Positions 8,505-28,592 of a stretch of 64,000 nucleotides of DNA are shown here, one piece after another (within the stretch, counting starts at the first letter, position 1; every line of letters begins with the position of its first letter). Source of the DNA: a virus (taxonomy: Duplodnaviria > Caudoviricetes); the IMG/VR virus record IMGVR_UViG_3300015606_001334, positions 128,001 through 192,000 of that record, one strand, 5' to 3'. The translations under genes were made by a program, and so were the position numbers. Under the pieces are notes generated by a model, which saw only the letters and a program-made list of their open reading frames with translations, ran no database searches and was not told the origin of the DNA.

Positions 8505-8649
8505 TGGTGGAGCCGACGGGTCTCGAACCACGTACGTCGCAAGGACACCGGTTTTACCTTAGATAACCATTTTCTGTCGGCTTATTTCTAAGCAAAAGTT
8601 TGAAAACGACTTTTTTGACCGGCGCGTCTACCAATTTCGCCACGACTCC
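8505..8649 (-). ncRNA. tRNA-Leu-type body with Y-RNA-like module in anticodon loop
   Basis: Leu D-loop, variable arm, A-CCA; CCGGT/ACCGG stem encloses CTTTTGCTTA-GAAA-TAAGC-C-G...GGTTATC. Confidence 0.8.
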
Positions 8650-8652
8650 ATT

Positions 8653-8770
8653 CGGTGGGGAGGAGTGGGTTTGAACCACTGACCTTCAGCGGAATACTGA
8701 TCACCTCAAGGCGGCCGCCAGATGAATGTTCTTCCAAACGCTGATGCTCTACCAACTGAGCTACCTCCCC
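8653..8770 (-). ncRNA. tRNA-like RNA with ~49-nt anticodon-loop insertion
   Basis: Normal acceptor, D and T arms; TCAGC/GCTGA stem; ends A-CCG. Confidence 0.75.
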
Positions 8771-8980
8771 AAATTCTCGCACAAGACCATATTTCGTCTA
8801 GAGCGGCTACACCCCAGCTTTATTTTTGGTTACCTGCCAGGTATACGAGAAAGTAAACAATCTTAGCTTGCCTGCAAATCCTGAGAAGGAATTTATCGGT
8901 TTTACCAGCAGTCTATCGCTATTCACGGGTTGTCTCGTTTACTGTTTTAAGTAGCTATTACACTACCCCGTTAGATTGTT

Positions 8981-9057
8981 TGGTGGGAATCCTGGGACTC
9001 GAACCCAGAACCTTCTGCTTAAGAGGCAGATACTCTAACCAATTGAGTTAGATTCCC
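8981..9057 (-). tRNA. tRNA-Lys(CTT)
   Basis: Cloverleaf, loop CTCTTAA, CCA. Confidence 0.95.
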
Positions 9058-9064
9058 GAATTAC

Positions 9065-9346
9065 TTAGGCGTAAACACGTGTGATGTAATTCAAAATGTT
9101 CACCATACCTTCGTAGGACATTTTACCTTCAACGTGTTGTTCAAAAATTTGACGGCGTTTTACGCCTTGTTCGTCAAGGGAACGGATAAGTTGAACTTCT
9201 TCAAACGTCAACTTCCGGTTCTTGTTTGCCTTCGGCTTTTCAGCCTTATCTTTTGCTTTTTCGCCTTGGTTACGGCCAGTTGCCATACCACGAAAACCGC
9301 GAGAAGCAGTAGAAGCCAAACCCATACCAATGAAGAACATAGACAT
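9065..9346 (-). CDS. small basic HTH-like protein
   Basis: RKLTFEEVQLIR...QIF pattern; AAGGAG RBS. Confidence 0.6.
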   Translation of the reverse strand: MSMFFIGMGLASTASRGFRGMATGRNQGEKAKDKAEKPKANKNRKLTFEEVQLIRSLDEQGVKRRQIFEQHVEGKMSYEGMVNILNYITRVYA

Positions 9347-9430
9347 TTTTAACTCCTTGTTATGATTTACTACAAGGAGAATTATATTTCAATTTTCAAT
9401 TTTTGTAAACTGAAATTGAAAATTTGTTTT

Positions 9431-9558
9431 TGGTTGAGGCGGAAGGAATCGAACCTTCTCTAGTCGGATATGAGTCGAGATAACCATCCACGAGCGGCGT
9501 ATCTCTACGCAAAAGTTGCAGGCGATGTTTTCCTGTGCTGCCAGTACACTACGCCTCA
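9431..9558 (-). ncRNA. tRNA(CAT)-like body with Y-RNA-like module before the anticodon hairpin
   Basis: TGAGGCG/CGCCTCA-A-CCA; CTTTTGCGTA-GAGA-TACGC-C-G...GGTTATC, then CTCATAT loop and T-arm. Confidence 0.8.
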
Positions 9559-10097
9559 ATTGAACTACAATTATCAAAATGCCATCTCATCATGACATTT
9601 CTTGCACCCTCTTTACCGCAATGAGGACACTTGATCTTTTCCCTGATTTTACCAAGGTTTTTCTTACCACCGGATGAACAATTAGGATGCTGACTAATTT
9701 TCTTTTTCGTTTCCATTGGCATTTCAAATTTTCCATTCGGACCATTTTTAATGCCGCCAATACGAGAAAAATAATCTTCACCGTACTTCTTTTTCATTGT
9801 TTCTTTTCGTTTATGTCCATCTTCATTCCATCCACCTAACGTTTCAGGAATTAGATTTGCCCAGAGTTCTGACTTAACTATGTTATTGTCATCACTAAAC
9901 TGACGGGCAATTCTTGCACATTCTTCGCGATCCTCGTAGGATCCAATAACTTCAGTAGAAACATCGTTACCAAATTCGTTAAGATGCTTACACCAGTTTT
10001 TACCTGATCCACGGTATTTCATTGGATCATGGGTAGTCTTTCCGAAATACTTAAGACCTGTTTTATTATGGGTCTTAACGTAAAGAAAGATCATCAA
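9549..10097 (-). CDS. GIY-YIG-like homing endonuclease with C-terminal Zn ribbon
   Basis: FLYVKTHNKTGLKYFGKT, YRGSG, CPHC. Confidence 0.8.
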   Translation of the reverse strand: MMIFLYVKTHNKTGLKYFGKTTHDPMKYRGSGKNWCKHLNEFGNDVSTEVIGSYEDREECARIARQFSDDNNIVKSELWANLIPETLGGWNEDGHKRKETMKKKYGEDYFSRIGGIKNGPNGKFEMPMETKKKISQHPNCSSGGKKNLGKIREKIKCPHCGKEGARNVMMRWHFDNCSSIEA

Positions 10098-10411
10098 TTA
10101 ATTCCCATCTTCTTTACTAGCAAAACGTCTTGTAGATGCTCAAGCGATTCGAATGCATCCATCAATGTCAAAGCCTTTTCAACTGTGTTGTTACGACGAC
10201 GCATTTTGCGAAGTTCACTAATAGTATCTTCTTCGTCCTCGTCAATAAATGCTTTTTCGAAATGCTCAAAAATTCTATCTACACATGCAGCTTCAGATCC
10301 GAATACTTCCATGTTTTCGAATATGTCGTCATCGGCAAATTGACCATTGTTAAGGTCTAGCACGATGATCCAAACATCGCCAGCTGATTCAAAAAGAGTT
10401 TGAAGTCTCAT
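10094..10411 (-). CDS. hypothetical acidic protein, late
   Basis: AATAAATA upstream; MRLQTLFE. Confidence 0.65.
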   Translation of the reverse strand: MRLQTLFESAGDVWIIVLDLNNGQFADDDIFENMEVFGSEAACVDRIFEHFEKAFIDEDEEDTISELRKMRRRNNTVEKALTLMDAFESLEHLQDVLLVKKMGIN

Positions 10412-10443
10412 TTTACACCTCTTAAAGAGGTTATTTATTACTT

Positions 10444-10623
10444 TGGTACCCCAAGTAGGATTCGAACCTACGACCTATCGGTTAAATACCGATTGCTCTA
10501 CGTTTTTGGGCTGGCTTTATTACCTACTTTGACGTCATTTTCGGAAACCAAAGACAGCTTAAACGAAAGACTTTGACGAGTTAGCTAATCTCGCCGTTTC
10601 CTTTGCCACTGAGCTATTAGGGT
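10444..10623 (-). ncRNA. tRNA-like RNA (Lys TTT?) with ~100-nt insertion in D-loop
   Basis: GCTCAGTGG-[insert]-TAGAGC; anticodon loop TATTTAA; T-arm; A-CCA. Confidence 0.75.
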
Positions 10624-10751
10624 TGGTGCCCCGACCCGGGATCGAACCGGGATGACCGAAGTCGACAGATTTTCTTAAGCGGGCTCAGTCACTAAGTTTC
10701 AGAACCCGCTTCGTGAAAGTCTGTTGCGTCTACCAATTTCGCCATCGGGGC
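10624..10751 (-). ncRNA. tRNA-Leu body with hairpin insertion in anticodon loop (possible intron)
   Basis: Leu D-loop and variable arm, CCA; AAGCGGGTTC/GAGCCCGCTT helix inside the loop. Confidence 0.8.
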
Positions 10752-11024
10752 ATTAAAAAGCTAAGCTAAGAGTGATAGTGATTTCAATCTTCTTGTGTTC
10801 ACGTGCATCGTCAGGCTTATTCAACTCTTTGTGTTCAATAGCTTTATCAATAACTTCAGAAAGATCCTTACGGTTCTGACCTGATTTTGACTTATCTACC
10901 TTTTCTAGGTTGCCATAAATTTTCATGATTTCCTCTACTACTACTGCTTTTAAAGTAGTATTTATCGGACATAGACAAAAATCAAGAAAAAATAGGTGAA
11001 AAAGTCATTTGTTATCAATTACTT

Positions 11025-11133
11025 ATTGTTACTAAAGGCATATGTCGAAAGTAACAATTGACTTAAGACATGTATCTAAAGGCATATGCCTTTAGTAACA
11101 ATTTGACCATAAGGCATATGCCTTATGGTCAAA
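11025..11133 (+). repeat. cluster of nested palindromes (AAGGCATATG x3)
   Basis: Perfect 32-bp palindrome 11102-11133, 20-bp palindrome 11076-11095, inverted repeat 11025-11042/11085-11102. Confidence 0.85.
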
Positions 11134-11167
11134 ACTGTTGAGGAAGCGTTGCACTTCCTCTGCTGGA

Positions 11168-12064
11168 TTACTTGATCGATACCGGTGCCAGAGCTCGGGA
11201 GAGACTAGCTTCACCGCGACCATAAACTTCAGGGCGATAATTTGCAACCGTGTCGGTACGAGCAGTGGTCAACAGTTGATTGGTGATTTGCTTTGCACTT
11301 GCACCAACGAACTTACTTCCGAGGATCGCAGCATAACCATCGATGATCGGGGCTGCGAAGGAAGTTCCAGCAAGGTTAGTCGTCGTGCTAACAACGCCAA
11401 CCGAAAGAAACTTGTTTTGAACATTTACGTCAGAACCTGCGACGTTGGAGTAGCTGGTCATCGAAGCCTTGCTAGCAGTCGTTCCGTTCTTGTTGAGAGC
11501 GCCTGCAAAGATGGTCGTTTGACCACTGATCAGTGCAGATGCGAGGAAATCCTTGGTGCCGTTCTTGGTCGTTTGACCAACTGCAACGCTATCGTTACCT
11601 GCAGCCTTGACAACAATGGCAGTACCATTTTGGGCTGCTGCGATGATCGACTTTTCAGTTGCGTTGGTGATGATGTACTTTTGGTCGATCGTAGTGGGTG
11701 CGAACAGACCGTAACTTGCGTTGACGATGTTCAGCTTACCAGGTTCCAGATTGATCGCAGAACCATTCATATAACCAGTGGTGCTGATCTTCGCTTCAGG
11801 GGCAACCAAACTTGCTTCTTGAGAAACCCAGAAACCGTGACCCTTGACTTCGATGCTGTTGGTAAGACGACCAACGATCAGAGAGCGGTTGGAGAAATCA
11901 TCGACAACCAAAATGTTGGTACCTTGGCCCTTGTAACCCTGCGACCATGCAGACTTGACATCAGCATGTTCCCAGTTGGACCAGTAAGTGGGTTCGACAG
12001 CTTGAACAGAGAGGGAAGTAACTGCCAGAGCGATCATCGTGAGGGACTTATTCAGGGAGGTCAT
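11168..12064 (-). CDS. secreted subtilisin-like (S8) serine protease
   Basis: Signal peptide; ILVVDD, HG, AAGN, GTSFAAP catalytic motifs. Confidence 0.9.
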   Translation of the reverse strand: MTSLNKSLTMIALAVTSLSVQAVEPTYWSNWEHADVKSAWSQGYKGQGTNILVVDDFSNRSLIVGRLTNSIEVKGHGFWVSQEASLVAPEAKISTTGYMNGSAINLEPGKLNIVNASYGLFAPTTIDQKYIITNATEKSIIAAAQNGTAIVVKAAGNDSVAVGQTTKNGTKDFLASALISGQTTIFAGALNKNGTTASKASMTSYSNVAGSDVNVQNKFLSVGVVSTTTNLAGTSFAAPIIDGYAAILGSKFVGASAKQITNQLLTTARTDTVANYRPEVYGRGEASLSRALAPVSIK

Positions 12065-12136
12065 GGCTTTTCCTTTCGTTTGAATGACTACCACAATTGA
12101 AATTATATCAAAATTTCGGGAAATGTAAACAAATTT

Positions 12137-12700
12137 TCAAAAAGAATATTTGAATTGAACGCTGATAGTTTTGTAATTTACAGGGCGCTCATTCAAGTTG
12201 TACTTGAGAGTTTCAGAAGGTTGAAGCTCAGTTGCAGCCAACCGACAGTTGACTTCTTGAACTCCACCAATCTCGCCATAATCAGCAATACAGGACTTTT
12301 CCCGCAAGCGACCTCCAAATGTATAAAAACCATTCATGGAAATCGTAGCTTGCTTGTTGAAACTATGGATATAAACTGCGCCGAGCTTGAAGCTCGGATC
12401 AATTGTGTACTTAGGCGCCTTTTCACCCGTCGAAAATCCCCAAAGAATACCGAACTCCTTAGAGACTTGAGTCACATAGTCGACCTTAACATCTGTCCAC
12501 TTGGACGTATACCACTTATCAAATTTAATTTGGGAGCCAGTAGCAGATTCATAACCTGTAAAACTGGAAAGGCTGTGTGCCTTTGAGGAGAGAGGGGATC
12601 CTTGCTGGATCCCAATCAGGTAAGTATCATCGAAAAAGTCGAAGGCATTCGCATTAAACGATACCACCAAAAGCATTCCAATAATTGACTTACGCATCAT
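12137..12700 (-). CDS. exported, outer-membrane beta-rich protein
   Basis: Signal peptide ANA-F, alternating beta pattern, C-terminal YSF. Confidence 0.6.
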   Translation of the reverse strand: MMRKSIIGMLLVVSFNANAFDFFDDTYLIGIQQGSPLSSKAHSLSSFTGYESATGSQIKFDKWYTSKWTDVKVDYVTQVSKEFGILWGFSTGEKAPKYTIDPSFKLGAVYIHSFNKQATISMNGFYTFGGRLREKSCIADYGEIGGVQEVNCRLAATELQPSETLKYNLNERPVNYKTISVQFKYSF

Positions 12701-12758
12701 GATAATTCTCCGTCTATGATTGAATTATATCACAAACCGAAAGAATGTAAACAAAATT

Positions 12759-12834
12759 TGGAGCGGGCAGCGAGTCTCGAACTCGCGACCTTCTGCTTGG
12801 CAAGCAGATGTTCTACCAACTGAACTATGCCCGC
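12759..12834 (-). tRNA. tRNA-Gly(GCC)
   Basis: Cloverleaf, loop TTGCCAA, U-CCA. Confidence 0.95.
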
Positions 12835-13010
12835 GTATAAGCTGTTGTTTTACTGCCTAGGAGGTCAAATCTCCCATGGATATGTACTCGTTCGGTCATG
12901 ACTCCGACTATCCTACATAACTCTAACCTTTCAATCAATAGTTTCCTAGGACAATTGATAACTCTGGCTAGCAAGGTGTTCCCACTGAAGGGTCACTATA
13001 CAACAACTTA

Positions 13011-13152
13011 AGGTCTCCCTGGATGGACTCGAACCATCGGCCCCCATAATTCCGCAGCTTAAGATGAGTTGCTACCCATCTCCGAAAATTCCATTTCGAT
13101 TTGGTCCTTTACCATGAGCGGTGGAGAGCTCTACCAACTGAGCTACAGGAAG
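13011..13152 (-). ncRNA. tRNA-like RNA with ~70-nt structured anticodon-arm expansion
   Basis: Intact acceptor, D and T arms; ends A-CCT. Confidence 0.75.
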
Positions 13153-13154
13153 AT

Positions 13155-13514
13155 TTACATTTGCGAAGAAACCCACCTTCGGACTTCTTCAATCTTGAAC
13201 GGCTTAACGAAGTATCGATCGGCCTGTCTTTCTACTAAAGCTAGAATATTTTGCTCTTCTGGATCTTTTCCAGACATGAGAGCTATCTTAACGTCATCAA
13301 AATCCTTAAAGGACTTTATTGCGGCGAGTGTTTGATAGCCATTCATTTTGGGCATCATCAGATCAAGCAGGATCACCTTTGGTTTTACTTGGCATAAGAT
13401 TTCTAATGCTTCCAATCCATCTTTAGCCTGGATCACCTCATACTGCTTCTCAAGTATTGCTTGTAGTAATCTGCGAACATGCGGATTATCGTCTATGATT
13501 AGGACCGTTCCCAT
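13155..13514 (-). CDS. single-domain response regulator (receiver)
   Basis: VLIIDD, ILLDLMMPKMNG, FVKPF; start MGTVL with AGGA RBS. Confidence 0.9.
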   Translation of the reverse strand: MGTVLIIDDNPHVRRLLQAILEKQYEVIQAKDGLEALEILCQVKPKVILLDLMMPKMNGYQTLAAIKSFKDFDDVKIALMSGKDPEEQNILALVERQADRYFVKPFKIEEVRRWVSSQM

Positions 13515-13531
13515 AATATTTCCTATTGGCT

Positions 13532-13616
13532 TGGTGCCCAGGGTGGGACTCGAACCCACACGCCTTTCGGCACTGGCTTCTAAGACCAGCGCGTCTACCA
13601 ATTCCGCCACCTGGGC
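13532..13616 (-). tRNA. tRNA-Leu(TAG)
   Basis: Class II cloverleaf, loop CTTAGAA. Confidence 0.95.
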
Positions 13617-13716
13617 ATTTGATGGTATCAACTAACTTTTCGATCGCATTGTCCGTCTCTCCTATGCTCGAATACCTAAAGTACGGACTTTCTATCATGA
13701 CATCGTTTCAACCATC

Positions 13717-13792
13717 TGGTGGGACTTGACGGGTTCGAACCGCCGACCCTCTCCTTGTAAGGGAGACGCTCTACCAACTGAGCTAAAGTCCC
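13717..13792 (-). tRNA. tRNA-Val(TAC)
   Basis: Cloverleaf, loop CTTACAA. Confidence 0.95.
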
Positions 13793-13912
13793 AAGATTTA
13801 GAACTTTTCCAAGCGTTACCAAGGATTCTCTTCGAGGATTCTCCACATACCCGTTAATAGATATGCTTCAAATTGTTCTACCCCTAGTTGGGAATCTACC
13901 CAACACGGATAC

Positions 13913-13985
13913 TGGAGCGGGCGACGAGATTCGAACTCGCCTGTTCCGGCTTGGAAGGCCAGACGTTCTCCAGTTGACCGCCCGC
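13913..13985 (-). tRNA. tRNA-Gly(TCC), shortened D-arm
   Basis: GCGGGCG acceptor, loop CTTCCAA, U-CCA. Confidence 0.8.
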
Positions 13986-13990
13986 ATAAG

Positions 13991-14096
13991 ACTAACAAAA
14001 GTAGAAATTGACTAAAGTTGCATCCAGCATTCAAGAGGAGAATCGAACTCCTAACTCCATTTTCGCAGAATAGATAACCAATTTCAAGCGGTTAGC
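13991..14096 (-). ncRNA. YrlA-like Y RNA (T-arm, then D-like loop)
   Basis: GCTAAC-C-G / CTTTTGTTAGT, GGTTATC, AGGAG-TTCGATT-CTCCT. Confidence 0.8.
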
Positions 14097-14098
14097 TT

Positions 14099-14174
14099 TG
14101 GCTCTGTAGGGTGGGCTCGAACCACCGACCGACGGATTAACAGTCCGTTGCTCTACCAACTGAGCTACTACAGA
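14099..14174 (-). tRNA. tRNA-Asn(GTT)
   Basis: Loop CTGTTAA, G-CCA. Confidence 0.95.
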
Positions 14175-14211
14175 ATAGAAAGGAACTTTGTTAAGAGTTC
14201 CTTTTTGTTAA

Positions 14212-14481
14212 TTAAGCGCTTTCAGAGCCGCTCTTAACGAATGCATCTAGCGACTTTTGAGCTGCTTCGCTAAATGGGGTGACTTCGATTACTTGAGACC
14301 AAGTAACTGCACCAAGATCAACAGATTCACCAACTGCAACGGTGACTTCGTCGAATGGATAAGAAGTCTTATCAGCTTCGTCGACTACTGGACCGTCGCC
14401 GTTTGCGACGTTGTAAACCTTACCAGACTTTTTGAATTGAACCTTGACTGGATTTTGTGCTTCGTTTTTGAAAACAGACAT
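14212..14481 (-). CDS. hypothetical protein
   Basis: AGGAG RBS, start MSVFKN, terminator hairpin downstream. Confidence 0.7.
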   Translation of the reverse strand: MSVFKNEAQNPVKVQFKKSGKVYNVANGDGPVVDEADKTSYPFDEVTVAVGESVDLGAVTWSQVIEVTPFSEAAQKSLDAFVKSGSESA

Positions 14482-14554
14482 TTTATTTCTCCTATAAGAA
14501 AACAACATGTTGTGGGTAACCAACAATGCTATTTATATTTTTCGGAGATTCATT

Positions 14555-14630
14555 TGGTGCCCCAGGACTAGAATTGAACTGTCGACCCCTTCCTTACAAG
14601 GGAAGTGCTCTACCACTGAGCTACAAGGGC
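14555..14630 (-). tRNA. tRNA-Thr(TGT)
   Basis: Loop CTTGTAA. Confidence 0.92.
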
Positions 14631-14706
14631 ATTTGCGATTTAAACCTTGAAGGCCTCCATTTCTGGACGTTACTACAAACCTTAAGATGACGCATGAGTT
14701 ATTTAT

Positions 14707-14791
14707 TGGTGCCCATCGCCGGACTCGAACCGGCACTCCTTTCGGAAGTAGATTTTGAGTCTACCGCGTCTACCAATTCCGCCAGACGGGC
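14707..14791 (-). tRNA. tRNA-Leu(CAA)
   Basis: Loop CTCAAAA, variable arm. Confidence 0.95.
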
Positions 14792-14923
14792 AAGGCGTTT
14801 ACTTAACCGTATGATCCAAGATGCCATCCTTCAAAGGTGGCCTATGTCAGTCACGATTTCTACGGTCTTCTCTGACTCAGCTGTCATACTCACTGCAGAA
14901 TTTTGTATGACAAACAAGTAAAC

Positions 14924-14998
14924 TGGTGCCCAAGGTTGGAATCGAACCTACGACCTCTTTCGTACCAAGAAAGCGTTCTACCACTGAACTACGAGGGC
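14924..14998 (-). tRNA. tRNA-Thr(GGT)
   Basis: Loop TTGGTAC. Confidence 0.92.
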
Positions 14999-15008
14999 AT
15001 AAAATGTT

Positions 15009-15095
15009 TGGTGCTCTAGGAGGGACTCGAACCCTCACGTCCTTTCGGACACAACGACCTCAACGTTGCGCGTCTACCAATTCCGCCACCAGAGC
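15009..15095 (-). tRNA. tRNA-Leu(GAG)
   Basis: Loop TTGAGGT, variable arm. Confidence 0.95.
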
Positions 15096-15099
15096 ATTT

Positions 15100-15202
15100 T
15101 GGCCCATCGCGAAGGATTTGAACCTTCATTTAACCTGGACGGAATCGAACCGTCTCGTTGGGATTCGCGCGAATAGTACCCAGGGAACCAACCCACGATG
15201 GA
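15100..15202 (-). ncRNA. tRNA-like RNA with two T-arms
   Basis: GACGG-TTCGATT-CCGTC and GAAGG-TTCAAAT-CCTTC inside a TCCATCG/CGATGGG helix with CCA. Confidence 0.65.
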
Positions 15203-15516
15203 TGGTGGAAACTGGCGAGGGGCTCATTCCCCACAACCTTCCAATCACGAAGTCTTATTAAGCTACAACACTCCACTTAATGGACTGGCCGGTCCAAGAA
15301 GCTTCATCATGTTGGGAGGACTTGTTTCCTCCACCTCGGCGTCTTCTGAGCTATAATAATTTATTAGAGCTACCACCTTGGAGCGCTCTCGAATGCATGG
15401 TATCCAGCCCCTACATTCTACACTCTTCTGCTTTAGACTCCGTGACCTACTCAGTACCAATGGCTGGCCCATTGTACTTTTATCCCGAAGAACGGATATA
15501 ATCAGTCACAGTTTCC
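15203..15516 (-). ncRNA. ~314-nt structured RNA with acceptor-like stem and CCA
   Basis: GGAAACTG/CAGTTTCC-A-CCA; multiple internal helices. Confidence 0.65.
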
Positions 15517-15594
15517 GGCGCTGAAGGTAGGATTCGAACCTACAACCCCCACACAATGAGGCAGGAGCTCTTACCAAACGAGACTTACATCAGC
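15516..15594 (-). tRNA. atypical tRNA (CAT-containing 8-nt loop)
   Basis: T-arm intact; D and anticodon arms irregular; ends G-CCG. Confidence 0.55.
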
Positions 15595-15715
15595 AAAATC
15601 GAAAGGTATCAGTTACCAGGCTGATCTTTATTCATTAGTTCAGCATCTCTCGCATCCACTTTTTCAGGGGAGAGCAACCTTCCTAACTATTCGCCTAAAT
15701 TTCTTAGGACCTTTC

Positions 15716-15800
15716 TGGTGCCCTGGGAGGGACTCGAACCCACACGCCTTGCGGCGCCAGAACCTAAATCTGGTGCGTCTACCAATTTCGCCACCAGGGC
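15716..15800 (-). tRNA. tRNA-Leu(TAG)
   Basis: Loop TTTAGGT. Confidence 0.95.
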
Positions 15801-15876
15801 AATTCATTATGGCTAACTTCGGATCCTTGGCCTTCGGCGTTCTAGTAGTTAGCAACGTACCCGTCATAATGAAATT

Positions 15877-15962
15877 TGGAGCGCAGGGTGTGATTCGAAC
15901 ACACGTGGGATTTCTCCGAGAGGTTTGCAATCTCCCGCCTTCGACCGCTTGGCTACCTGCGC
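15877..15962 (-). tRNA. tRNA-Cys(GCA) with long variable arm
   Basis: Loop TTGCAAA, U73-CCA, extra GGA-GAAA-TCC arm. Confidence 0.85.
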
Positions 15963-16243
15963 AAAGTGTACGTGGTGACTAGCCTTAAGTATCATGCCTG
16001 ATACAATTGGTGCCGTACGAACCATTCGTAATTTTTACATCTTCGATCAGATGGCTACCATCAGCGGTTTGCCTTTCTGCCAGTCGAATAACCCAGAGAT
16101 TGGTCAAATGGGCTTCTTTTGATTATCGATTCACGAAGAGAAAAACGGCTTTCATACGATGCAAGCAGCACGCCTAGCGACTCAGTCCTAGGAGAGGTCC
16201 CTTAACCTGGAAATCTAGGAGATTCACTTAGTCAAAATGAATC

Positions 16244-16321
16244 TGGCCTCGCGAGAGGGATTCGAACCCCCGACCCGCTGCTTAGAAGGCAGCTGCTCTA
16301 GTCCAACTGAGCTACCGCGAG
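16244..16321 (-). tRNA. tRNA-Arg(TCT)
   Basis: Loop CTTCTAA. Confidence 0.95.
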
Positions 16322-16503
16322 AAAAACAATTCTTAGCCCTGGAATTACTTATGAGAATCCGCATAGTTCCAGTTTAACGGCCCTCACTAAGAATTGGGCG
16401 CATATGGAGATCATTGAAATCGTCTATCACCGTGCTTAGTTTCGTACTGAAGCGTACGTCTTTAGACTTATCGGCACCGTCACCCTTCCGGCTCATATGC
16501 GTA

Positions 16504-16765
16504 GTCATTGACAAAATTTAGATATCGGATATTCAGAGAAAAGCGAACTTAACTCCTAGTTAGATGGGTCAGTCACCTAACAACCGCCTACTTATTCTTA
16601 GTAGGAAATATCGACGTTATTCTATGTCGACAATAATCAAATTGTAATCGAGGAGGAGCAAGCTCCTTGTTCCCTCTGTTGTCCGTCAATTTGAAAAAAT
16701 AGACAACATCTCAATTAAGGACGATCATTAGCTATTAAGATAACCAATATCTCGCGGTCAATGAT
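16504..16765 (-). ncRNA. Y-RNA-like ncRNA (long form)
   Basis: CATTGAC-C-G / TTTTGTCAATG, AGATATTGG/CCGATATCT, GTTATC. Confidence 0.75.
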
Positions 16766-16841
16766 TGGTGGAACTGAAGGGAATCGAACCCTCAACATCT
16801 AGCTTGCAAAGCTAGCGCTCTCCCAATTGAGCTACAGCCCC
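16766..16841 (-). tRNA. tRNA-Ala(TGC)
   Basis: G3:U70, loop TTTGCAA. Confidence 0.95.
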
Positions 16842-17014
16842 AAAGTAAATGATATTTAATGTTCCAGCTTTTGGCATACTCTCTTAGGCTTCAGACCCAG
16901 GGATGTCAGCCCTTTTGCGCCTGCCAGGTTTCTTGCATGAACTTTTGACAGATTTTCTCATGCTCAAGGAATCCACCCAAACCAGCGTGTAACTTAGAGG
17001 GCTTCCATATCATT

Positions 17015-17100
17015 TGGTGCACCAGGTAGGATTCGAACCTACTCACCCAGAGGGAACAGATTTACAGTCTGCCGTAACTCTCCAACTTTACCGCTAGTGC
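17015..17100 (-). tRNA. tRNA-Tyr(GTA)
   Basis: Loop CTGTAAA, variable arm. Confidence 0.92.
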
Positions 17101-17106
17101 AATACA

Positions 17107-17224
17107 ATCAAACAAAGATAAAAATCGAATTGCTGCGCCCAATTTCTTGCAGCTCATAAATCCGAAGACCTATGATGGAGTCGAACCATTCATCTGATAG
17201 ATAATCGATTTTCGACGGTTTGAT
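17107..17224 (-). ncRNA. YrlA-like Y RNA (complete permuted tRNA domain)
   Basis: Bulged-C helix, ATTATC, T-arm, acceptor-like stem closed by TTCG, D-like arm. Confidence 0.85.
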
Positions 17225-17310
17225 TGGTGGTCTATCTAGGTAACGATCCTAGCCAACCCGAAGGTATCAGTTTTACAGACTGCGCGGCGTCCTTAGCCGA
17301 ATACTAGACC
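17225..17310 (-). tRNA. atypical tRNA-Tyr(GTA)
   Basis: Loop CTGTAAA; non-canonical T-loop ATCGTTA. Confidence 0.75.
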
Positions 17311-17317
17311 TTGAAAC

Positions 17318-17467
17318 TTAAAAATGCTCTTTTGTTACTTGATACTCAGGAGAAGGATATTCTTCCTTCTTAGCTTTCAAAAGCTCATTTGCTTCTGCTA
17401 CAGTGAGACACTTACGAGTAAAAACCGTAGTGTATCCCTTCATAACCACAATGTGCCAAAACTTCAT
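17318..17467 (-). CDS. hypothetical protein (49 aa)
   Basis: GGGAG RBS, start MKFWH. Confidence 0.65.
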   Translation of the reverse strand: MKFWHIVVMKGYTTVFTRKCLTVAEANELLKAKKEEYPSPEYQVTKEHF

Positions 17468-17488
17468 GCTTACTTCTCCCTTAATAAT

Positions 17489-17562
17489 TGGTTGCGGGCA
17501 GGGGAATCGAACCACCTTCCCAACTGGCTTATGAGACCAGCGTCAGACCTTCTGAACCCGCA
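17489..17562 (-). tRNA. tRNA-Met/Ile2(CAT), short D-arm
   Basis: Loop CTCATAA, A-CCA. Confidence 0.8.
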
Positions 17563-17569
17563 ATTGAGA

Positions 17570-17644
17570 GATAAACAAAGGAGTGGAAATTGGGGATTGG
17601 ATCAAAGTGGAAGTTTGAGATAACCAATTTCCTTTCGGTTTATC
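17570..17644 (-). ncRNA. minimal Y-RNA-like RNA with pyrimidine-rich loop
   Basis: GATAAAC-C-G / CTTTGTTTATC, GGAAATTGG/CCAATTTCC, GTTATC. Confidence 0.8.
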
Positions 17645-17735
17645 TGGCGGAGGCGGTGAGATTCGAACTCACGGACCTTTTTAGGGATCGGTAGTTTTCA
17701 AGACTACTGCGTTAAACCAGCTCTGCCACGCCTCC
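17645..17735 (-). tRNA. tRNA-Ser(TGA)
   Basis: Loop CTTGAAA, long variable arm, G-CCA. Confidence 0.95.
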
Positions 17736-18068
17736 ATTTTTACGATTCCTCGACTTGTAAGTACTCAACTGTGAATCACAATTGCTACAGACAAATCTTA
17801 GATTTTCTAATCTATTGTCGTTGTTAACACCGTTGATGTGGCCAAGAATTAATGGCATAGGTTTCCCTTGCCATTCAGGACCAATTCCACAGCATGCGCA
17901 ACGATATTCGATTAACTTTCCATCTAATATTCGACTCTTTACATGATGTCTAGCGAGAGTCGAATTTTCAGAAAAAACTTCTTCATCCGTCTTTCTTATC
18001 GACCGATGATACTCTGTTAATCCTGGTTTCTTTCCTTTATTCCAAGGGACACTTCCTTTTGATGCCAT
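17712..18068 (-). CDS. HNH endonuclease
   Basis: CACCG...HINGVNNDNRLENLRFVCSNC. Confidence 0.85.
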   Translation of the reverse strand: MASKGSVPWNKGKKPGLTEYHRSIRKTDEEVFSENSTLARHHVKSRILDGKLIEYRCACCGIGPEWQGKPMPLILGHINGVNNDNRLENLRFVCSNCDSQLSTYKSRNRKNGGVAELV

Positions 18069-18128
18069 AATCTGCTAAAAGTTATTTCAACAGATGTATT
18101 TATTGCACCAGTTTGTGAAACAATAGGG

Positions 18129-18192
18129 AATCAAACAAAAAGCGATGATCGACGCTTTTCCAATAAGATAACCAATCATCAACGGTTTGATT
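18129..18192 (-). ncRNA. minimal (64 nt) Y-RNA-like RNA
   Basis: AATCAAAC-C-G / TTTTTGTTTGATT, GATGATTGG/TCGATCATC, GTTATC. Confidence 0.8.
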
Positions 18193-18283
18193 TGGCTCCG
18201 GCCTCAGGGATCGAACCTGATTGAAACCTTATGAGGGCCTCCTGGTTAACAGCCAGTTGCTCTACCAATTGAGCTACGCCGGA
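18193..18283 (-). tRNA. tRNA-Asn(GTT) with extra CAT-loop arm
   Basis: Loop CTGTTAA; variable arm GGCC-CTCATAA-GGTT. Confidence 0.85.
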
Positions 18284-18290
18284 ATTGTAA

Positions 18291-18400
18291 ACTAACAAAA
18301 ATAGATATCGAGTAATGCGGCACCCAGCTTCCAAATCGGGAATCGAACCCAATCCTTCGTTTTTTCCATAAAAAGAGATAACCGATATCAAGCGGTTAGT
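18291..18400 (-). ncRNA. YrlA-like Y RNA
   Basis: ACTAAC-C-G / TTTTTGTTAGT, GGTTATC, T-arm TTGGG-TTCGATT-CCCGA. Confidence 0.8.
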
Positions 18401-18476
18401 TGGTTGCGGGAGTTGGACTTGCACCAACCTTGGCCAGCTTATGAGACTGGTGATGAACTTTCTCCTCTATCCCGCA
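18401..18476 (-). tRNA. atypical tRNA-Met/Ile2(CAT)
   Basis: Loop CTCATAA, T-loop TGCAAGT. Confidence 0.75.
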
Positions 18477-18483
18477 ATCAAAA

Positions 18484-18599
18484 GATAAACAAAACTAGTA
18501 ATCGATGAACCTCTTTCGAGGGTGAAGGGCTTGAACCTTCTAACTTGTGGATGATTAGTCCTCTCGTATTATCCGATAACCAATTACTCACGGTTTATC
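18484..18599 (-). ncRNA. Y-RNA-like RNA with T-arm; paralogue of 749-873
   Basis: Same helix and GAGGACTAAT...TCCAC segment. Confidence 0.8.
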
Positions 18600-18982
18600 A
18601 ATTACTTCTTCCTTTTCCTCCTTTAGCTGACATATTCCTATGCCATTCTTTGAACTCTTCAGGAGAAAGAGAATTCTTCATTTTTGTTATGTATGAAATT
18701 CGTTTATTCTGACGATAATCATCTCTCAAATTATCTGAGTATGTTCCCCAATACAAATGATTTGGATTTGAGCATTTACCATTTCCACAGCCATGACAAC
18801 AAATAACTTTCTTACCTGTCGGTATTGTGGTTTTAAGATGGTGTGCTAATAACCCTCTAAATTCTACAGAGCTATATCCACCAATTTCAATACAAGGCTC
18901 GTCAAGTTTAAGGTGCTTCTGTCTATCTTCTACAGGAAGCTCAATATACTCAAGAATTTCTACGAAACTGGTAGGAGACATG
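18598..18982 (-). CDS. HNH-type (Zn-binding) homing endonuclease
   Basis: CCHGCGNGKCSNPNHLYWGT..DN; nearest ATG lies inside tRNA-Lys. Confidence 0.7.
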
Positions 18983-19043
18983 GGACTCGAACCCACAACC
19001 TCGACATTAAAAGTGTCTTGCTCTACCATTGAGCTAATCTCCC
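18969..19043 (-). tRNA. tRNA-Lys(TTT)
   Basis: Loop CTTTTAA. Confidence 0.92.
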
Positions 19044-19055
19044 ATTAAATGAATC

Positions 19056-19130
19056 TGGTGGTCGATGCTGGATTTGAACCAGCGACCTATCGCTTATCAA
19101 GCGAGTGCTCTACCACTGAGCTAATCGACC
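19056..19130 (-). tRNA. tRNA-Ile(GAT)
   Basis: Loop TTGATAA. Confidence 0.95.
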
Positions 19131-19169
19131 AGCAGGAATGACTGCAATCATTCCTTTACTACTATGTAC

Positions 19170-19298
19170 CGGTGCAGTCTGAAGGAATCGAACCTCCGTC
19201 TTCGCCTTGTAATGGATAACCATTTTCAAGCGGTTCATTTTCATGAACAAATTCAGAAAACGATGTTTATCGCTGTTCTACCACTGAACTAAGACTGC
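19170..19298 (-). ncRNA. tRNA-Val(TAC)-like body with Y-RNA-like module
   Basis: TTTGTTCAT-GAAA-ATGAAC-C-G...GGTTATC, then CC-ATTACAA-GG; ends A-CCG. Confidence 0.8.
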
Positions 19299-19353
19299 AA
19301 AAATGAATCTGGCCTAAATACCATTAGGTTGGTACAACTTTACCGCAGATTCA

Positions 19354-19482
19354 AGGTGGAGAGTAGAGGATTCGAACCTCTGACCACGTGCTTAACAGGC
19401 AGATAACCAATTTCGGCCGGTTTGAGCAAACAAACAAAGAGTGAAATCGACATTTACGTGCTCTACCACTGAGCTAACTCCC
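19354..19482 (-). ncRNA. tRNA(GTT)-like body with Y-RNA-like module in anticodon stem
   Basis: ACG-[insert ending GGTTATC]-TGC-CTGTTAA-GCACGT; ends A-CCT. Confidence 0.8.
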
Positions 19483-19563
19483 CAACAAAATCAGCAAGAT
19501 GACACCACTTGGTATACGTGGCTAATTAAGCATTATGTCCCCACAAATGCTCATCTTCGCTGA

Positions 19564-28007: not shown

Positions 28008-28035
28008 TTTATTGTTCTTATTATGGAAGTGAGGG

Positions 28036-28420
28036 TGGGGAAATGTTTCTGTTGCCAAGTACAACTTCCCCAAAAACTCCGACAGCTTTACCTATTTAAA
28101 GGATCAAGCAGCCACGCGGTAACTTTCGTCGTTTGCGTTTAACTTTTTTCTTCCACTAACGCAGGTTGCTCTCGAGTCGTTCCAATCTTGTTACTCATGC
28201 CATGTCGAGACCTGTCGACCCCATTAAAAAGAAACCTAGTATGACGATCACGTTCTCTTACTCTTTCGTCATCCTGCCTTGCCTTCTCATAGGTAAGATC
28301 GAAGAACGATCCATCTTACCTCGGGCGACCTCCTTGCGAGAGGACTTGGTTTCTTTTTGGTGGAGTCGAGGGGAATCGAACCCCTTTCCACAACACTTTC
28401 CCAATCAAAGTCTCAGGTAT
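28036..28420 (-). ncRNA. ssrA: two-piece (circularly permuted) tmRNA, tag (A)ANDESYRVAA*
   Basis: Acceptor piece ...GGGTTCGATTCCCCTCGACTCCACCA (28358-28420) precedes the GGGGTCGA...CTCGAC 5' piece (from 28222); tag frame 28136-28104; G3:U70. Confidence 0.9.
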
Positions 28421-28592
28421 TTCTACCCATACGACTATAAAAACTCTCGGTCATTCTTTCGATCGTCTTCCCATTTATCCCAGTTGTAATGAAAGATGGA
28501 ATAAATCCAACCACCAACACAACCAATGATTGTTACAACAACGAGAAGTTTTTCTACTTGATCAACCATGAAAAGAATTATATCACTATTTA

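What the first reader, a model, noticed from the sequence alone, without database searches (positions are those of the whole stretch)
8505..19482. tRNA-Y RNA chimeras: circularly permuted Y module grafted into the anticodon arm of tRNA bodies
Seen: at 8505-8649 (Leu body), 9431-9558 (CAT), 19170-19298 (TAC) and 19354-19482 (GTT) the Y module appears with strands in reverse order. The 3' strand comes first and the end is capped by GAAA, GAGA, GAAA or a 6-nt loop, while the free 5'/3' ends are a normal acceptor stem (two with CCA). In 19354-19482, deleting the insert restores ACGTGC-CTGTTAA-GCACGT exactly, and the CAT and TAC loops also survive right after GTTATC. Known: YrlA is the opposite permutation, with the acceptor stem sealed and the Ro stem open. 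Inference: these are potentially chargeable Y RNAs and an evolutionary intermediate between tRNA and YrlA. Alternatively they are Ro-gated introns whose removal and RtcB-type ligation release a tRNA, or decoys for anticodon nucleases.
Basis: partly seen in the sequence, partly recalled or inferred. Interest (0 to 1): 0.93.

Follow-up and report, generated by a model that had tools for sequence, protein, structure and literature searches.

The report
tRNA-shaped Y RNAs of a jumbo phage
Four genes in the tRNA cluster of a 360-kb wastewater phage encode complete tRNA bodies with a 56-58-base extra arm in the anticodon stem; the arm is the docking helix of Y RNAs in reversed strand order, so they are most likely tRNA-shaped partners of the phage's own Ro60 protein, a form I found in no paper, not tRNAs with introns.

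Summary
At 19354-19483, 19170-19298, 9431-9558 and 8505-8649 (minus strand) a tRNA body is interrupted in the anticodon arm by a 56-58-nt module. The same module closes at least six other small RNAs of this array, but there its two strands are in the opposite order.

A covariance model of the inserted form finds exactly these four copies in the 359,550-bp genome. It finds 28 more distinct copies in related phage contigs, nearly all inside tRNA bodies. Both of its variable helices covary (90.6% of cells paired, 10 of 10 pairs).

The module has the layout of the Ro-binding stem of YrlA. The phage encodes a full-length Ro60/Rsr orthologue. The inserted form occurred only in Ro60-encoding viral records (9 of 33 against 0 of 23).

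The intron reading is disfavoured:
- There is no bulge-helix-bulge motif, splicing endonuclease or RtcB.
- The junction position varies, and some relatives have no anticodon arm at all.
- Every chimera has an uninterrupted twin tRNA in the genome.

Ro60 binding, charging and expression are untested. This scan has already noted the same class on other DNA (at least 28 genomes). I found no description in the searchable literature. My verdict is a new topological variant of Y RNA, of high interest.

The parts
19354..19483 (-). Chimera 1: tRNA body with a CTGTTAA (GTT) loop remnant and a tRNA-Ala-like acceptor stem (G1-C72, G2-C71, G3:U70, G4-C69, A73). No encoded CCA.
   Evidence: Rfam tRNA model, 49.5 bits over 19357-19483. 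ARAGORN calls Asn-GTT in 54 of 84 deletion variants. Sequence read.
19402..19459 (-). Permuted Y module of chimera 1. TCG bulge 19448-19450. Helix 2 is ATTTC (19443-19447) paired with GAAAT (19410-19414). Outer hairpin GTTTG/CAAAC with a 6-nt loop. CCG 19418-19420. TGGTTATC 19402-19409.
   Evidence: R1 56.5 bits, E 1.6e-10. Coordinates.
19170..19298 (-). Chimera 2: tRNA body with an ATTACAA (TAC) loop remnant. The anticodon stem is only 3 of 5 paired once the module is removed. Helix 1 of the module is a full 8 positions here (7 standard pairs and one G.A mismatch).
   Evidence: Rfam tRNA model, 46.9 bits over 19173-19298. ARAGORN calls Val-TAC after deletion. Sequence.
19215..19272 (-). Permuted Y module of chimera 2. 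TCG 19261-19263. Helix 2 is TTTTC (19256-19260) paired with GAAAA (19223-19227). Hairpin GTTCAT-GAAA-ATGAAC. CCG 19231-19233. TGGTTATC 19215-19222.
   Evidence: R1 62.2 bits, E 7e-12. Coordinates.
9431..9558 (-). Chimera 3: tRNA body with a CTCATAT (CAT) loop remnant. Acceptor stem TGAGGCG/CGCCTCA, A73, encoded CCA. Orthologues in at least three related genomes keep CTCATA(A/T).
   Evidence: ARAGORN calls Met-CAT in 39 of 84 deletion variants. Orthologues L255_1501, L351 and L352.
9479..9534 (-). Permuted Y module of chimera 3. TCG 9523-9525. Helix 2 is CCTGC (9518-9522) paired with GTGGA (9487-9491), 4 of 5 pairs. Hairpin GCGTA-GAGA-TACGC. CCG 9495-9497. TGGTTATC 9479-9486.
   Evidence: R1 53.4 bits, E 8.6e-10. 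A related phage in metagenome contigs shows compensatory changes in the hairpin, C-G to U-A and G-C to U-A (table 3).
8505..8649 (-). Chimera 4: class II tRNA body with a Leu-like D arm and a long variable arm. Acceptor stem GGAGTCG/CGGCTCC, A73, encoded CCA. The anticodon stem CCGGT/ACCGG is intact and the module lies in the loop. The loop remnant is AGGTAAA, which corresponds to ATGTAAA (GTA, Tyr-type) in four orthologues (CCGTAAA in L238_8995), and position 33 is G.
   Evidence: Sequence. Orthologues L255_1699, L258, L084, L354 and L238_8995.
8562..8618 (-). Permuted Y module of chimera 4. TCG 8607-8609. Helix 2 is TTTTC (8602-8606) paired with GAAAA (8570-8574). Hairpin GCTTA-GAAA-TAAGC. 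CCG 8578-8580. TGGTTATC 8562-8569.
   Evidence: R1 61.3 bits, E 1.1e-11. Coordinates.
14003..14100 (-). Free-topology module, shown as a reference for the permutation. The 5' strand AACCG..TGGTTATC starts 5 nt after the CCA of tRNA-Asn. A T-arm-like hairpin follows, then the 3' strand (TCA, ATTTC, ..TTTT, GTTAG).
   Evidence: Further free copies have their TGGTTATC at 16739, 17619, 18167, 18377 and 18575.

Best explanation
These are Y RNAs built in tRNA order. Each gene makes one stable, unspliced RNA with an ordinary tRNA acceptor stem, D arm and T arm. It would therefore be cut out of the tRNA-array transcript by RNase P and the 3'-end enzymes, and completed with CCA like its neighbours (inferred).

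From the anticodon arm projects a capped, bulged helix. This helix is the same module that forms the closing stem of the phage's other Y-like RNAs, and it serves as the docking site for the phage-encoded Ro60/Rsr ring (inferred from motif, layout and co-occurrence; binding not shown).

The tRNA body is the effector module. It offers a free CCA end and, in most copies, an anticodon-loop remnant to proteins that recognise tRNAs, such as synthetases, the CCA-adding enzyme, modification enzymes, EF-Tu or anticodon-directed nucleases. In this way it tethers or gates Ro60 at those partners, as Yrn1 tethers Rsr to PNPase (inferred).

They are not decoders. The arm branches from the anticodon stem, which the ribosome grips (general knowledge of ribosome structure; no paper read here), and each has an uninterrupted twin tRNA in the genome.
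For: Module is real and structured. R1 finds the 4 window copies and no others in G000. It finds 28 further distinct copies in relatives. On 32 distinct sequences 90.6% of cells pair against 73% in shuffles and 24-46% when the partners are slid. Helix 2 and the capped hairpin covary at 10 of 10 pairs (the MAFFT-only alignment gives the same picture).

Same module in both topologies. The free copies share the G-C closing pair, CCG, the 5-bp covarying helix, the NCG bulge, the 7-9-nt strand ending in TTT(T), and TGGTTATC.

Y RNA identity.
- Rfam YrlA aligns end to end (34.3 bits, local E 1.4e-5) with a free-topology copy in a related contig, with the same order of parts.
- CCG sits where YrlA has GNCGAA, and TTAT where YrlA has YUAY (PMC4201824).
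- A free hairpin copy weakly hits the nematode sbRNA family, aligned on CCG and GGUUAUC. UUAUC is a known Y/sbRNA motif (PMC4726728).

Ro60.
- The phage protein is 535 aa with TROVE and vWA_Ro60 domains.
- It matches D. radiodurans Rsr at E 1e-102 and Xenopus Ro60 at E 3e-100 over its full length.
- TROVE is present in 4 of 5 module-bearing records.
- R1 hits occur in 9 of 33 TROVE-positive and 0 of 23 TROVE-negative large viral records, p = 0.005.

tRNA bodies are maintained.
- Most copies have fully paired acceptor and T stems of differing sequence (19 of 33 acceptor stems 7/7 and 28 of 33 T stems 5/5 in a naive parse that is off by one base for some).
- ARAGORN of 33 as tRNAs once the module is deleted.
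- Orthologous CAT and class II chimeras persist in genomes whose Ro60 proteins are only 53-57% identical by tblastn.

Redundancy. Canonical Met-CAT, Val-TAC, Asn-GTT and Tyr-GTA tRNAs exist in the same genome.

Precedent. Phage Ro60 binds phage-encoded Y-like RNAs and host PNPase (PMC12135203). M. smegmatis YrlA is opened by RNase P and receives CCA (PMC4201824).
Against: - No binding, expression or end-mapping data exist. The only RNA libraries available hold contigs of ~90%-identical relatives, which cannot show processing.
- The Rfam YrlA score is half the gathering threshold. No public model can score the permuted form.
- The modules lie 87-99 kb from the Ro60 gene, whereas YrlA genes usually lie within 4 kb of rsr.
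- The TROVE association is drawn largely from relatives of this phage, so it is not phylogenetically independent.
- Loop remnants are mostly canonical (U33 in 19 of 22, A37 in 20 of 22). That also fits a pre-tRNA or recently derived tRNA copies.
- Single-sequence folding is significant for only one of the four (z = -3.4; the others -0.2 to -0.5).
Confidence: 0.6

Rival explanations
1. Conditional pre-tRNAs. The module is a protein-dependent intron, perhaps held or released by Ro60. Its excision and ligation by a phage or host RNA ligase would yield functional Asn, Val, Met/Ile and Tyr-type tRNAs.
For: Deleting the insert restores a perfect anticodon arm in the GTT copy. Loop remnants are mostly canonical. 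The phage encodes one T4 Rnl1-like and two Rnl2-like RNA ligases.
Against: - A BHB-like geometry occurs at 2 of 33 junctions against 2.8 in shuffles.
- The phage has no splicing endonuclease and no RtcB.
- The insert is far too short for a group I or II intron, and Rfam gives no ribozyme hit.
- The junction varies (roughly 27/28 to 29/30, or within the loop) even between orthologues.
- The TAC stem is only 3 of 5 paired after removal.
- Some copies have unnatural anticodons (ACT, ATC, ATG), lack U33, or have no anticodon arm at all (L355/L356, L116, L360).
- The GTT copy has alanine-type acceptor identity.
- Canonical twins exist for all four.
- No module-excising joint appeared in RNA-library contigs, which is weak evidence.
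Confidence: 0.08
2. Decoys or baits. The tRNA bodies with their anticodon remnants attract host anticodon nucleases or other tRNA-targeting defence proteins. Ro60, with or without PNPase or the phage ligases, acts on what is caught. Alternatively the RNAs simply soak up the nuclease. This overlaps with the best explanation and is one specific choice of partner.
For: Anticodon triplets are conserved within orthologue groups (CAT in 4, GTA in 6, ACG in 2) while the module helices drift. U33, which I take to be needed for decoding (general knowledge; no paper read here), is lost in three copies although the triplet is kept. The genome carries tRNA-repair-type ligases and a 45-tRNA array. Ro60 has been linked to RNA repair in jumbo phages (PMC7824862).
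Against: No nuclease or defence partner is identified. The anticodons cover many unrelated families. Copies without any anticodon arm exist. Nothing here distinguishes nucleases from synthetases or modification enzymes as the readers of the loop.
Confidence: 0.15
3. Selfish insertion. The module is a small mobile or recombining cassette that landed in duplicated tRNA genes, and the chimeras are inert pseudo-tRNAs.
For: There are many module copies in one array. All four chimeras are redundant with intact tRNAs. Insertion points vary.
Against: Orthologous chimeras are kept across genomes whose Ro60 proteins are 53-57% identical by tblastn, with compensatory changes in the module helices and with acceptor and T stems that stay paired while their sequences differ between copies. 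There are no target-site duplications, terminal repeats or associated transposase or homing endonuclease at the junctions (by inspection). The insert always enters the same arm in the same orientation.
Confidence: 0.07
4. The arm is a handle for some protein other than Ro60, for example a phage tRNA-processing or modification enzyme. In that case the resemblance to Y RNA is convergent.
For: The Rfam Y-family scores are sub-threshold. The modules are not adjacent to the Ro60 gene in this genome.
Against: The layout matches YrlA part for part. The CCG and UUAUC motifs are shared with Y RNAs from bacteria to animals. In the sample tested the inserted form occurred only in TROVE-encoding records.
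Confidence: 0.1

Closest known systems
YrlA (Y RNA-like A; Rfam RF02553; S. Typhimurium, M. smegmatis, mycobacteriophages; Chen et al. 2014, PMC4201824; Wang et al. 2018, 10.1101/312249)
   Same: A Ro-binding bulged stem (outer stem, asymmetric internal loop carrying a CG-containing motif, inner helix, 3' bulge, YUAY) joined to the anticodon-stem position of a tRNA-like fold with D and T arms. It is encoded in genomes that carry rsr. M. smegmatis YrlA is even opened by RNase P and given CCA.
   Different: The topology is inverted in the gene itself. Here the 5' and 3' ends form a true 7-bp acceptor stem, and the Ro stem is closed by a tetraloop or a 6-nt loop. Most copies also keep an anticodon-loop remnant, which YrlA lacks. 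The genes sit in a tRNA array 87-99 kb from rsr. The Rfam model cannot detect them.
D. radiodurans Yrn1 and Thermus phage phiLo Yrl1/Yrl2 (Chen et al. 2013/2014; PMC12135203)
   Same: Ro60 partner RNAs that tether Ro60 to another protein (PNPase). phiLo shows that a phage Ro60 uses phage-encoded Y-like RNAs.
   Different: Those RNAs have open Ro stems and no complete tRNA body, acceptor end or anticodon remnant.
Archaeal and eukaryal tRNA introns at non-canonical positions, and permuted tRNA genes of red algae and archaea (as discussed in 10.1101/312249)
   Same: Short inserts interrupt tRNA genes, some in the anticodon stem near 29/30. Gene finders miss them or call them intron-containing.
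   Different: Those are defined by a bulge-helix-bulge motif cut by the EndA-type endonuclease. Neither is present here, and the insert here is a conserved, covarying functional module shared with free RNAs.
tmRNA, including the two-piece permuted form encoded in this same window at 28013-28450
   Same: A tRNA-like RNA with an open acceptor stem, G3:U70 and a large non-tRNA domain in place of the anticodon arm. It exists in circularly permuted gene versions.
   Different: tmRNA carries an mRNA-like tag and pseudoknots and partners with SmpB, not Ro60. Only one of the four chimeras has G3:U70.
Vertebrate Y RNAs and nematode sbRNAs (Kowalski and Krude 2015, PMC4726728; Rfam RF01656)
   Same: A lower stem with a CCG-containing bulged region, then an upper helix, then the UUAUC motif. 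A free copy of the phage module aligns to the sbRNA model over exactly these elements.
   Different: The score is only 17.8 bits (E 0.14). The eukaryotic RNAs have no tRNA domain.

Membership tests
Y RNA / YrlA (RF02553) | Ro-binding stem: outer helix, asymmetric internal loop with a GNCGAA-type motif on the 5' strand, inner helix, then YUAY | tested here: met
   CCG is near-invariant and TGGTTATC invariant among the 15 seed copies and nearly so among the 32 (two G030 copies end in GGTTACC, L349_1267 reads TGATTATC, L238_8995 TCGTTATC). The internal loop is 5-6 nt against 7-9 nt. The 5-bp inner helix covaries at 5 of 5 pairs. The order of parts is the same as in the Rfam consensus. The motif is CCG(N)3-4 rather than strict GNCGAA.
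Y RNA / YrlA (RF02553) | Reaches the Rfam gathering score (69 bits) | tested here: not met
   No YrlA hit on any module in the window at E<5. The best hit is 34.3 bits on a free-topology relative. A linear model cannot score the permuted copies.
Y RNA / YrlA (RF02553) | tRNA-like domain with D and T arms | tested here: met
   Rfam tRNA model, 46.9 and 49.5 bits. ARAGORN calls tRNAs after module deletion. T loops read GGTTCGA, D loops contain GG.
Y RNA / YrlA (RF02553) | RNA ends lie in the Ro stem and the acceptor-like stem is a closed hairpin | tested here: not met
   The arrangement is the opposite: the acceptor stem is open and the Ro stem is capped. This is why I class it as a variant and not a member.
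Y RNA / YrlA (RF02553) | Encoded with a Ro60/Rsr gene (typically within 4 kb, same strand) | tested here: inconclusive
   Same genome and same strand, but 87-99 kb apart: Ro60 at genome 47,685-49,292 and the chimeras at 136,505-147,483. Co-occurrence across records is 9 of 33 against 0 of 23.
Y RNA / YrlA (RF02553) | Binds Ro60 | not testable with these tools
   Needs RIP or EMSA.
Intron-containing tRNA, archaeal/eukaryal type | Bulge-helix-bulge motif at the exon-intron junctions | tested here: not met
   Found at 2 of 33 junctions against a mean of 2.8 in shuffles. Both junctions abut the base of one helix.
Intron-containing tRNA, archaeal/eukaryal type | Splicing endonuclease and ligase available | tested here: inconclusive
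   The phage has no PF01974 and no RtcB. Rnl1-like and Rnl2-like ligases are present. The host is unknown.
Intron-containing tRNA, archaeal/eukaryal type | Removal restores a canonical tRNA | tested here: inconclusive
   Exact for GTT, 4 of 5 for CAT, 3 of 5 for TAC, and a 10-nt loop for the class II copy. Several relatives cannot be restored at all.
Group I or II intron in a tRNA gene | Catalytic core (more than about 200 nt; P1-P9 or domains I-VI) | tested here: not met
   The insert is 56-58 nt. No intron family hits it.
Decoding tRNA | Continuous 5-bp anticodon stem with a 7-nt loop | tested here: not met
   ARAGORN of 33 with the module in place. The arm branches from the 5' strand of the stem or from the loop.

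The most novel reading that the evidence does not exclude
The chimeras are aminoacylated in the cell. At least the GTT copy would be charged by AlaRS through G3:U70/A73, and others by synthetases that read their retained anticodons. They would then carry Ro60, and any nuclease it recruits, onto EF-Tu or the ribosome, or be released from Ro60 as usable tRNA-like substrates only under stress. That would be a direct physical link between Ro60 RNA surveillance and translation, and it would explain why bacterial Y RNAs mimic tRNA.
Probability: 0.15. Interest if true: 0.9.

Novelty: new variant of a known kind. Interest (0 to 1): 0.72.

Why it matters
Why bacterial Y RNAs imitate tRNA has been an open question since 2014, and the partner of the tRNA-like domain is unknown.

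These genes are natural Y RNAs whose tRNA part is complete, with free acceptor ends, a discriminator base, CCA and often a recognisable anticodon. Charging, EF-Tu binding, modification and nuclease recognition can therefore be tested directly, using defined wild-type RNAs and a cognate phage Ro60.

They also show that the tRNA-to-Y RNA relationship exists in both circular permutations within one genome. This bears on proposals that YrlA arose from tRNA.

In practice, gene finders either miss these genes or report them as intron-containing tRNAs, and the Rfam YrlA model does not see them. Y RNA content in phages and the tRNA counts of huge phages are both mis-stated as a result.

Tried and rejected
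- Reads. Only Logan contigs were available. The two metatranscriptome runs hold ~90%-identical relatives as multi-gene contigs. No joint excises a module. The 8597-to-8654 'skip' in RNA runs covers half a module plus the tRNA 5' half, so it is divergence and not splicing. Nothing follows about expression or processing.
- Rfam at gathering and at E<5 on the window. No Y RNA, YrlA or ribozyme hit on the modules. The weak YrlA hits there are on tandem tRNAs.
- Single-sequence MFE folding. Only the TAC copy folds better than shuffles. The support is comparative, not thermodynamic.
- Search for module-less orthologues of the four bodies among all fetched loci. None found, but the sample is small.
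- Loose DNA patterns in viral contigs. Mostly chance matches, useful only for fishing out relatives.
- Strict pattern in 185,579 prokaryote genomes. Three hits, none in a tRNA, none in a genome with TROVE, consistent with chance. This sequence subtype looks phage-restricted (17 stretches in viral contigs).
- Single-protein search for Ro60 relatives. It found only two close relatives, so an alignment was needed.
- The 2020 Annual Review on bacterial Ro60 (PMC10870794) is not held, so I cannot exclude that it mentions such RNAs.

Full report
**Setting.** The window is bases 128,001-192,000 of a 359,550-bp IMG/VR phage record that CheckV rates as complete. The DNA recurs in wastewater metagenomes. 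The minus strand of the first 21 kb is a dense RNA island. ARAGORN tRNAs and a two-piece tmRNA there, and 45 tRNAs in the whole genome. Rfam adds several abnormally long 'tRNAs'.

**The observation.** On the minus strand the four loci read as follows: acceptor 5' strand, D arm, the first bases of the anticodon stem, a 56-58-nt insert, an anticodon-loop-like segment, variable region, T arm, acceptor 3' strand.

- Rfam's tRNA model bridges two of them: 19357-19483 at 49.5 bits and 19173-19298 at 46.9 bits.
- ARAGORN calls none of them as they stand.
- After the insert is deleted in silico, ARAGORN calls Asn-GTT, Val-TAC and Met-CAT, and a class II body in only 1 of 84 variants (as Leu-AAG).

**Anatomy of the insert.** All four inserts have one design. 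They start with A(A/C)A(T/G), then a TCG bulge, a 5-nt strand, and 7-8 nt ending in TTT(T). A 5-6-bp hairpin follows, capped by GAAA, GAGA, GAAA or a 6-nt loop, and its last C is the first C of an invariant CCG. Then come 3-4 nt, the 5-nt complement and TGGTTATC.

**The same parts in the other order.** At least six other RNAs of the array contain the same parts in the opposite order (TGGTTATC at 14073, 16739, 17619, 18167, 18377 and 18575). Their order is outer stem 5' strand, CCG, helix strand, TGGTTATC, a variable apical domain, NCG bulge, complementary helix strand..TTTT, outer stem 3' strand. The inserted copies are therefore a circular permutation of the free module. The stem that carries the RNA ends in the free form is capped, and the apical end is open and joined to the tRNA.

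**More than chance.**
- TGGTTATC occurs 11 times in the window against 1.56 expected.
- A covariance model of the inserted form (R1) hits exactly these four places in the genome, E from 1e-9 to 1e-11.

**Relatives.**
- R1 finds copies in other viral records: three in a 343-kb genome with terminal repeats, three in a 358-kb genome, three in a 368-kb genome, and more elsewhere. In total there are 33 loci and 32 distinct sequences.
- On those, 90.6% of cells form standard pairs, against 73% in shuffles and 24-46% with slid partners.
- All five pairs of the inner helix and all five of the capped hairpin show changes on both sides. That alignment is fitted to the model, but the unfitted MAFFT alignment of 15 gives 94.7% and 83.6% for the two helices, with 10 of 10 pairs covarying.
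- The helix next to the tRNA is only AA.CA paired with TG.GTT, with a purine-purine mismatch. The terminal ATC is usually unpaired.
- Nearly every copy lies inside a tRNA body. A simple parse gives most of them fully paired acceptor and T stems whose sequences differ between copies (19 of 33 acceptor stems 7/7, 28 of 33 T stems 5/5; for some the parse is off by one base), often followed by CCA.
- ARAGORN recognises 28 of 33 as tRNAs after deletion and 0 of 33 before.
- CAT chimeras (CTCATA[A/T]) occur in four genomes and class II GTA-type chimeras in six. The Ro60 proteins of these genomes are only 53-57% identical to this phage's by tblastn, so the design is old and maintained.

**What the module is.**
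- Chen et al. 2014 define YrlA by a 5' GNCGAA(N)G motif in the Ro-binding stem, a conserved YUAY where the stem meets the tRNA-like domain, and T and D arms around a closed acceptor-like hairpin.
- Rfam's YrlA model aligns end to end with a free-topology, high-GC copy of the module in a related contig (L142 9022-9154; 34.3 bits, E 1.4e-5 for that stretch). The aligned parts run: outer stem, 5-nt against 8-nt internal loop, inner helix, GGUUAUC on CUAc, V region, T arm, closed hairpin, D arm, 3' bulge, inner helix, outer stem.
- The score is half the gathering threshold, so this is a resemblance of layout and not family membership.
- The simplest free copy in the window (18128-18194) has as its best Rfam match the nematode stem-bulge RNA family, which are Y RNA homologues. 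It aligns on CCG and GGUUAUC at 17.8 bits, E 0.14. A UUAUC motif after the upper stem is a described feature of sbRNAs and vertebrate Y RNAs (PMC4726728).

**The protein partner.**
- The phage encodes a 535-aa protein with TROVE and vWA_Ro60 domains.
- It matches D. radiodurans Rsr (2NVO) at E 1e-102 and Xenopus Ro60 (1YVP) at E 3e-100 over its full length.
- TROVE is present in 4 of 5 module-bearing records tested; the fifth is a 6%-complete fragment.
- Among 30 large viral records chosen for a related Ro60 gene, 9 have R1 hits, including 6 of 11 that are at least 90% complete.
- Among 26 large records reached through chance-level motif matches, 3 have TROVE and none has an R1 hit. That gives 9 of 33 against 0 of 23, one-sided p = 0.005. 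The positives are relatives of one another, so the test overstates independence.
- A strict version of the inserted pattern gives 17 stretches in viral contigs. In 185,579 prokaryote genomes it gives three hits that lie in no tRNA and in genomes without TROVE.

**Intron or not.**
- The two junctions abut at the foot of one helix.
- A scan for bulge-helix-bulge geometry finds it at 2 of 33 junctions, against 2.8 in shuffles.
- The genome has no EndA-type endonuclease and no RtcB. It does have a T4 Rnl1-like and two Rnl2-like ligases.
- No ribozyme or intron family matches the insert.
- The junction is not fixed. It is 29/30 (or 28/29) in the GTT copy, 27/28 in the window's CAT copy and a different position in its orthologue. 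In the class II copies it lies in the loop.
- Exact restoration holds only for GTT (CGTGC/GCACG). CAT gives 4 of 5 pairs and TAC 3 of 5.
- Relatives include copies with anticodons no bacterium uses (ACT, ATC, ATG), copies with C or G at position 33, and copies in which the module replaces the anticodon arm entirely (L355/L356, L116, L360).
- The GTT copy combines an Asn loop with the alanine acceptor set (G1-C72, G2-C71, G3:U70, G4-C69, A73). In a decoder that would mistranslate.
- Every chimera has an uninterrupted twin in the genome: Asn-GTT at 14099-14174, Val-TAC at 13717-13792, Tyr-GTA at 17015-17100 and Met-CAT at genome 73,462-73,536.
- On the other side, loop remnants are mostly canonical: U33 in 19 of 22 and A37 in 20 of 22. 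The triplet is conserved within orthologue groups, so something reads that loop.

**Most likely mechanism.**
- Shown: a conserved, covarying Y-type module in permuted order inside maintained tRNA bodies, in Ro60-encoding phages.
- Inferred: the RNAs are released by tRNA processing enzymes and stay unspliced. The capped arm docks the phage Ro60. The tRNA body presents an acceptor end and an anticodon remnant to tRNA-recognising proteins, so that Ro60 is tethered or gated there, as Yrn1 tethers Rsr to PNPase.
- Precedent: phage phiLo Ro60 binds phage Yrl RNAs and host PNPase (PMC12135203). M. smegmatis YrlA is opened by RNase P and gets CCA.
- Which partner is involved (synthetase, EF-Tu, modification enzyme or anticodon nuclease) cannot be decided here. 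I give the Ro60-partner reading 0.6, a decoy specialisation 0.15, another protein 0.1, an intron 0.08 and a selfish insertion 0.07.

**Known or new.**
- YrlA is described as resembling a circularly permuted tRNA with a closed acceptor stem. [quoted passage not shown]
- I found no paper describing genes that encode the tRNA-order form with a capped Ro stem. The 2020 Annual Review could not be read.
- This scan has noted the same class on other DNA, in at least 28 genomes including cyanobacteria, giant viruses and other phages.
- What is particular here is four paralogues in one array, insertion into the stem so that the anticodon loop survives, and coexistence with at least six free-topology copies.

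Noticed in passing
window 14073-14100, 16739-16771, 17619-17651, 18167-18199, 18377-18409 (minus strand): Five of the six free-topology modules begin 3-7 nt after the CCA of an upstream tRNA-type gene (four ARAGORN-called tRNAs and, upstream of 18377, the Rfam-only tRNA-like gene at 18404-18476). Their 5' ends are therefore probably made by tRNA 3'-end processing, which would be tRNA-linked biogenesis of Y-like RNAs.
   Followed up: partly
window 18128-18194 (minus strand): This copy is a bare hairpin version of the module. Its best Rfam match is the nematode stem-bulge RNA family RF01656, a group of Y RNA homologues (17.8 bits, E 0.14). The alignment runs over CCG and GGUUAUC. A phage RNA carrying the eukaryote-type UUAUC motif is curious.
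   Followed up: partly
window 19354-19483 (minus strand): The GTT chimera has the complete tRNA-Ala acceptor identity set (G1-C72, G2-C71, G3:U70, G4-C69, A73), as tmRNA does, combined with an Asn anticodon loop. No orthologue was found, so conservation could not be tested.
   Followed up: partly
window 8656-8770, 10627-10751, 13014-13152 (minus strand): Three further Rfam 'tRNAs' of 115-139 nt carry inserts that lack the Y module (59.4, 43.6 and 38.3 bits). They appear to be different cargo on tRNA scaffolds.
   Followed up: no
window 17492-17562 and 18404-18476 (minus strand): Two tRNA-like genes have CTCATAA loops and unusual D regions. ARAGORN does not call them (Rfam 21.6 and 39.7 bits). 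One of them directly precedes a free module.
   Followed up: no
window 28013-28450 (minus strand): A two-piece (circularly permuted) tmRNA gene with tag ANDESYRVAA (Rfam tmRNA_permuted, 94.6 bits). It is a second permuted tRNA-like RNA in the same phage.
   Followed up: no
G000:C1:119950-120023 (minus strand; 8 kb before the window): ARAGORN calls a tRNA with anticodon CTA, which would be an amber suppressor. The phage may read TAG as sense in part of its genome.
   Followed up: no
G000:C1:4277-4876, 86574-87218, 95088-95600: The genome encodes one T4 Rnl1-like and two Rnl2-like RNA ligase domains, which is a tRNA-repair toolkit alongside Ro60.
   Followed up: partly
L355:1501-1555 and L356:1501-1555 with flanks (viral records G033, G032): In this extreme form the Y module replaces the whole anticodon arm and variable region. 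GGTTATC runs straight into the T stem, and the acceptor stem GGGGAGA/TCTCCCC is followed by GCCA.
   Followed up: partly
window 9494-9532: Contigs in two metatranscriptome runs and two DNA runs come from a ~90%-identical relative. Its CAT chimera keeps the module with compensatory changes in the capped hairpin (C-G to U-A, G-C to U-A), and a C-to-U change repairs the C.A mismatch in helix 2.
   Followed up: partly
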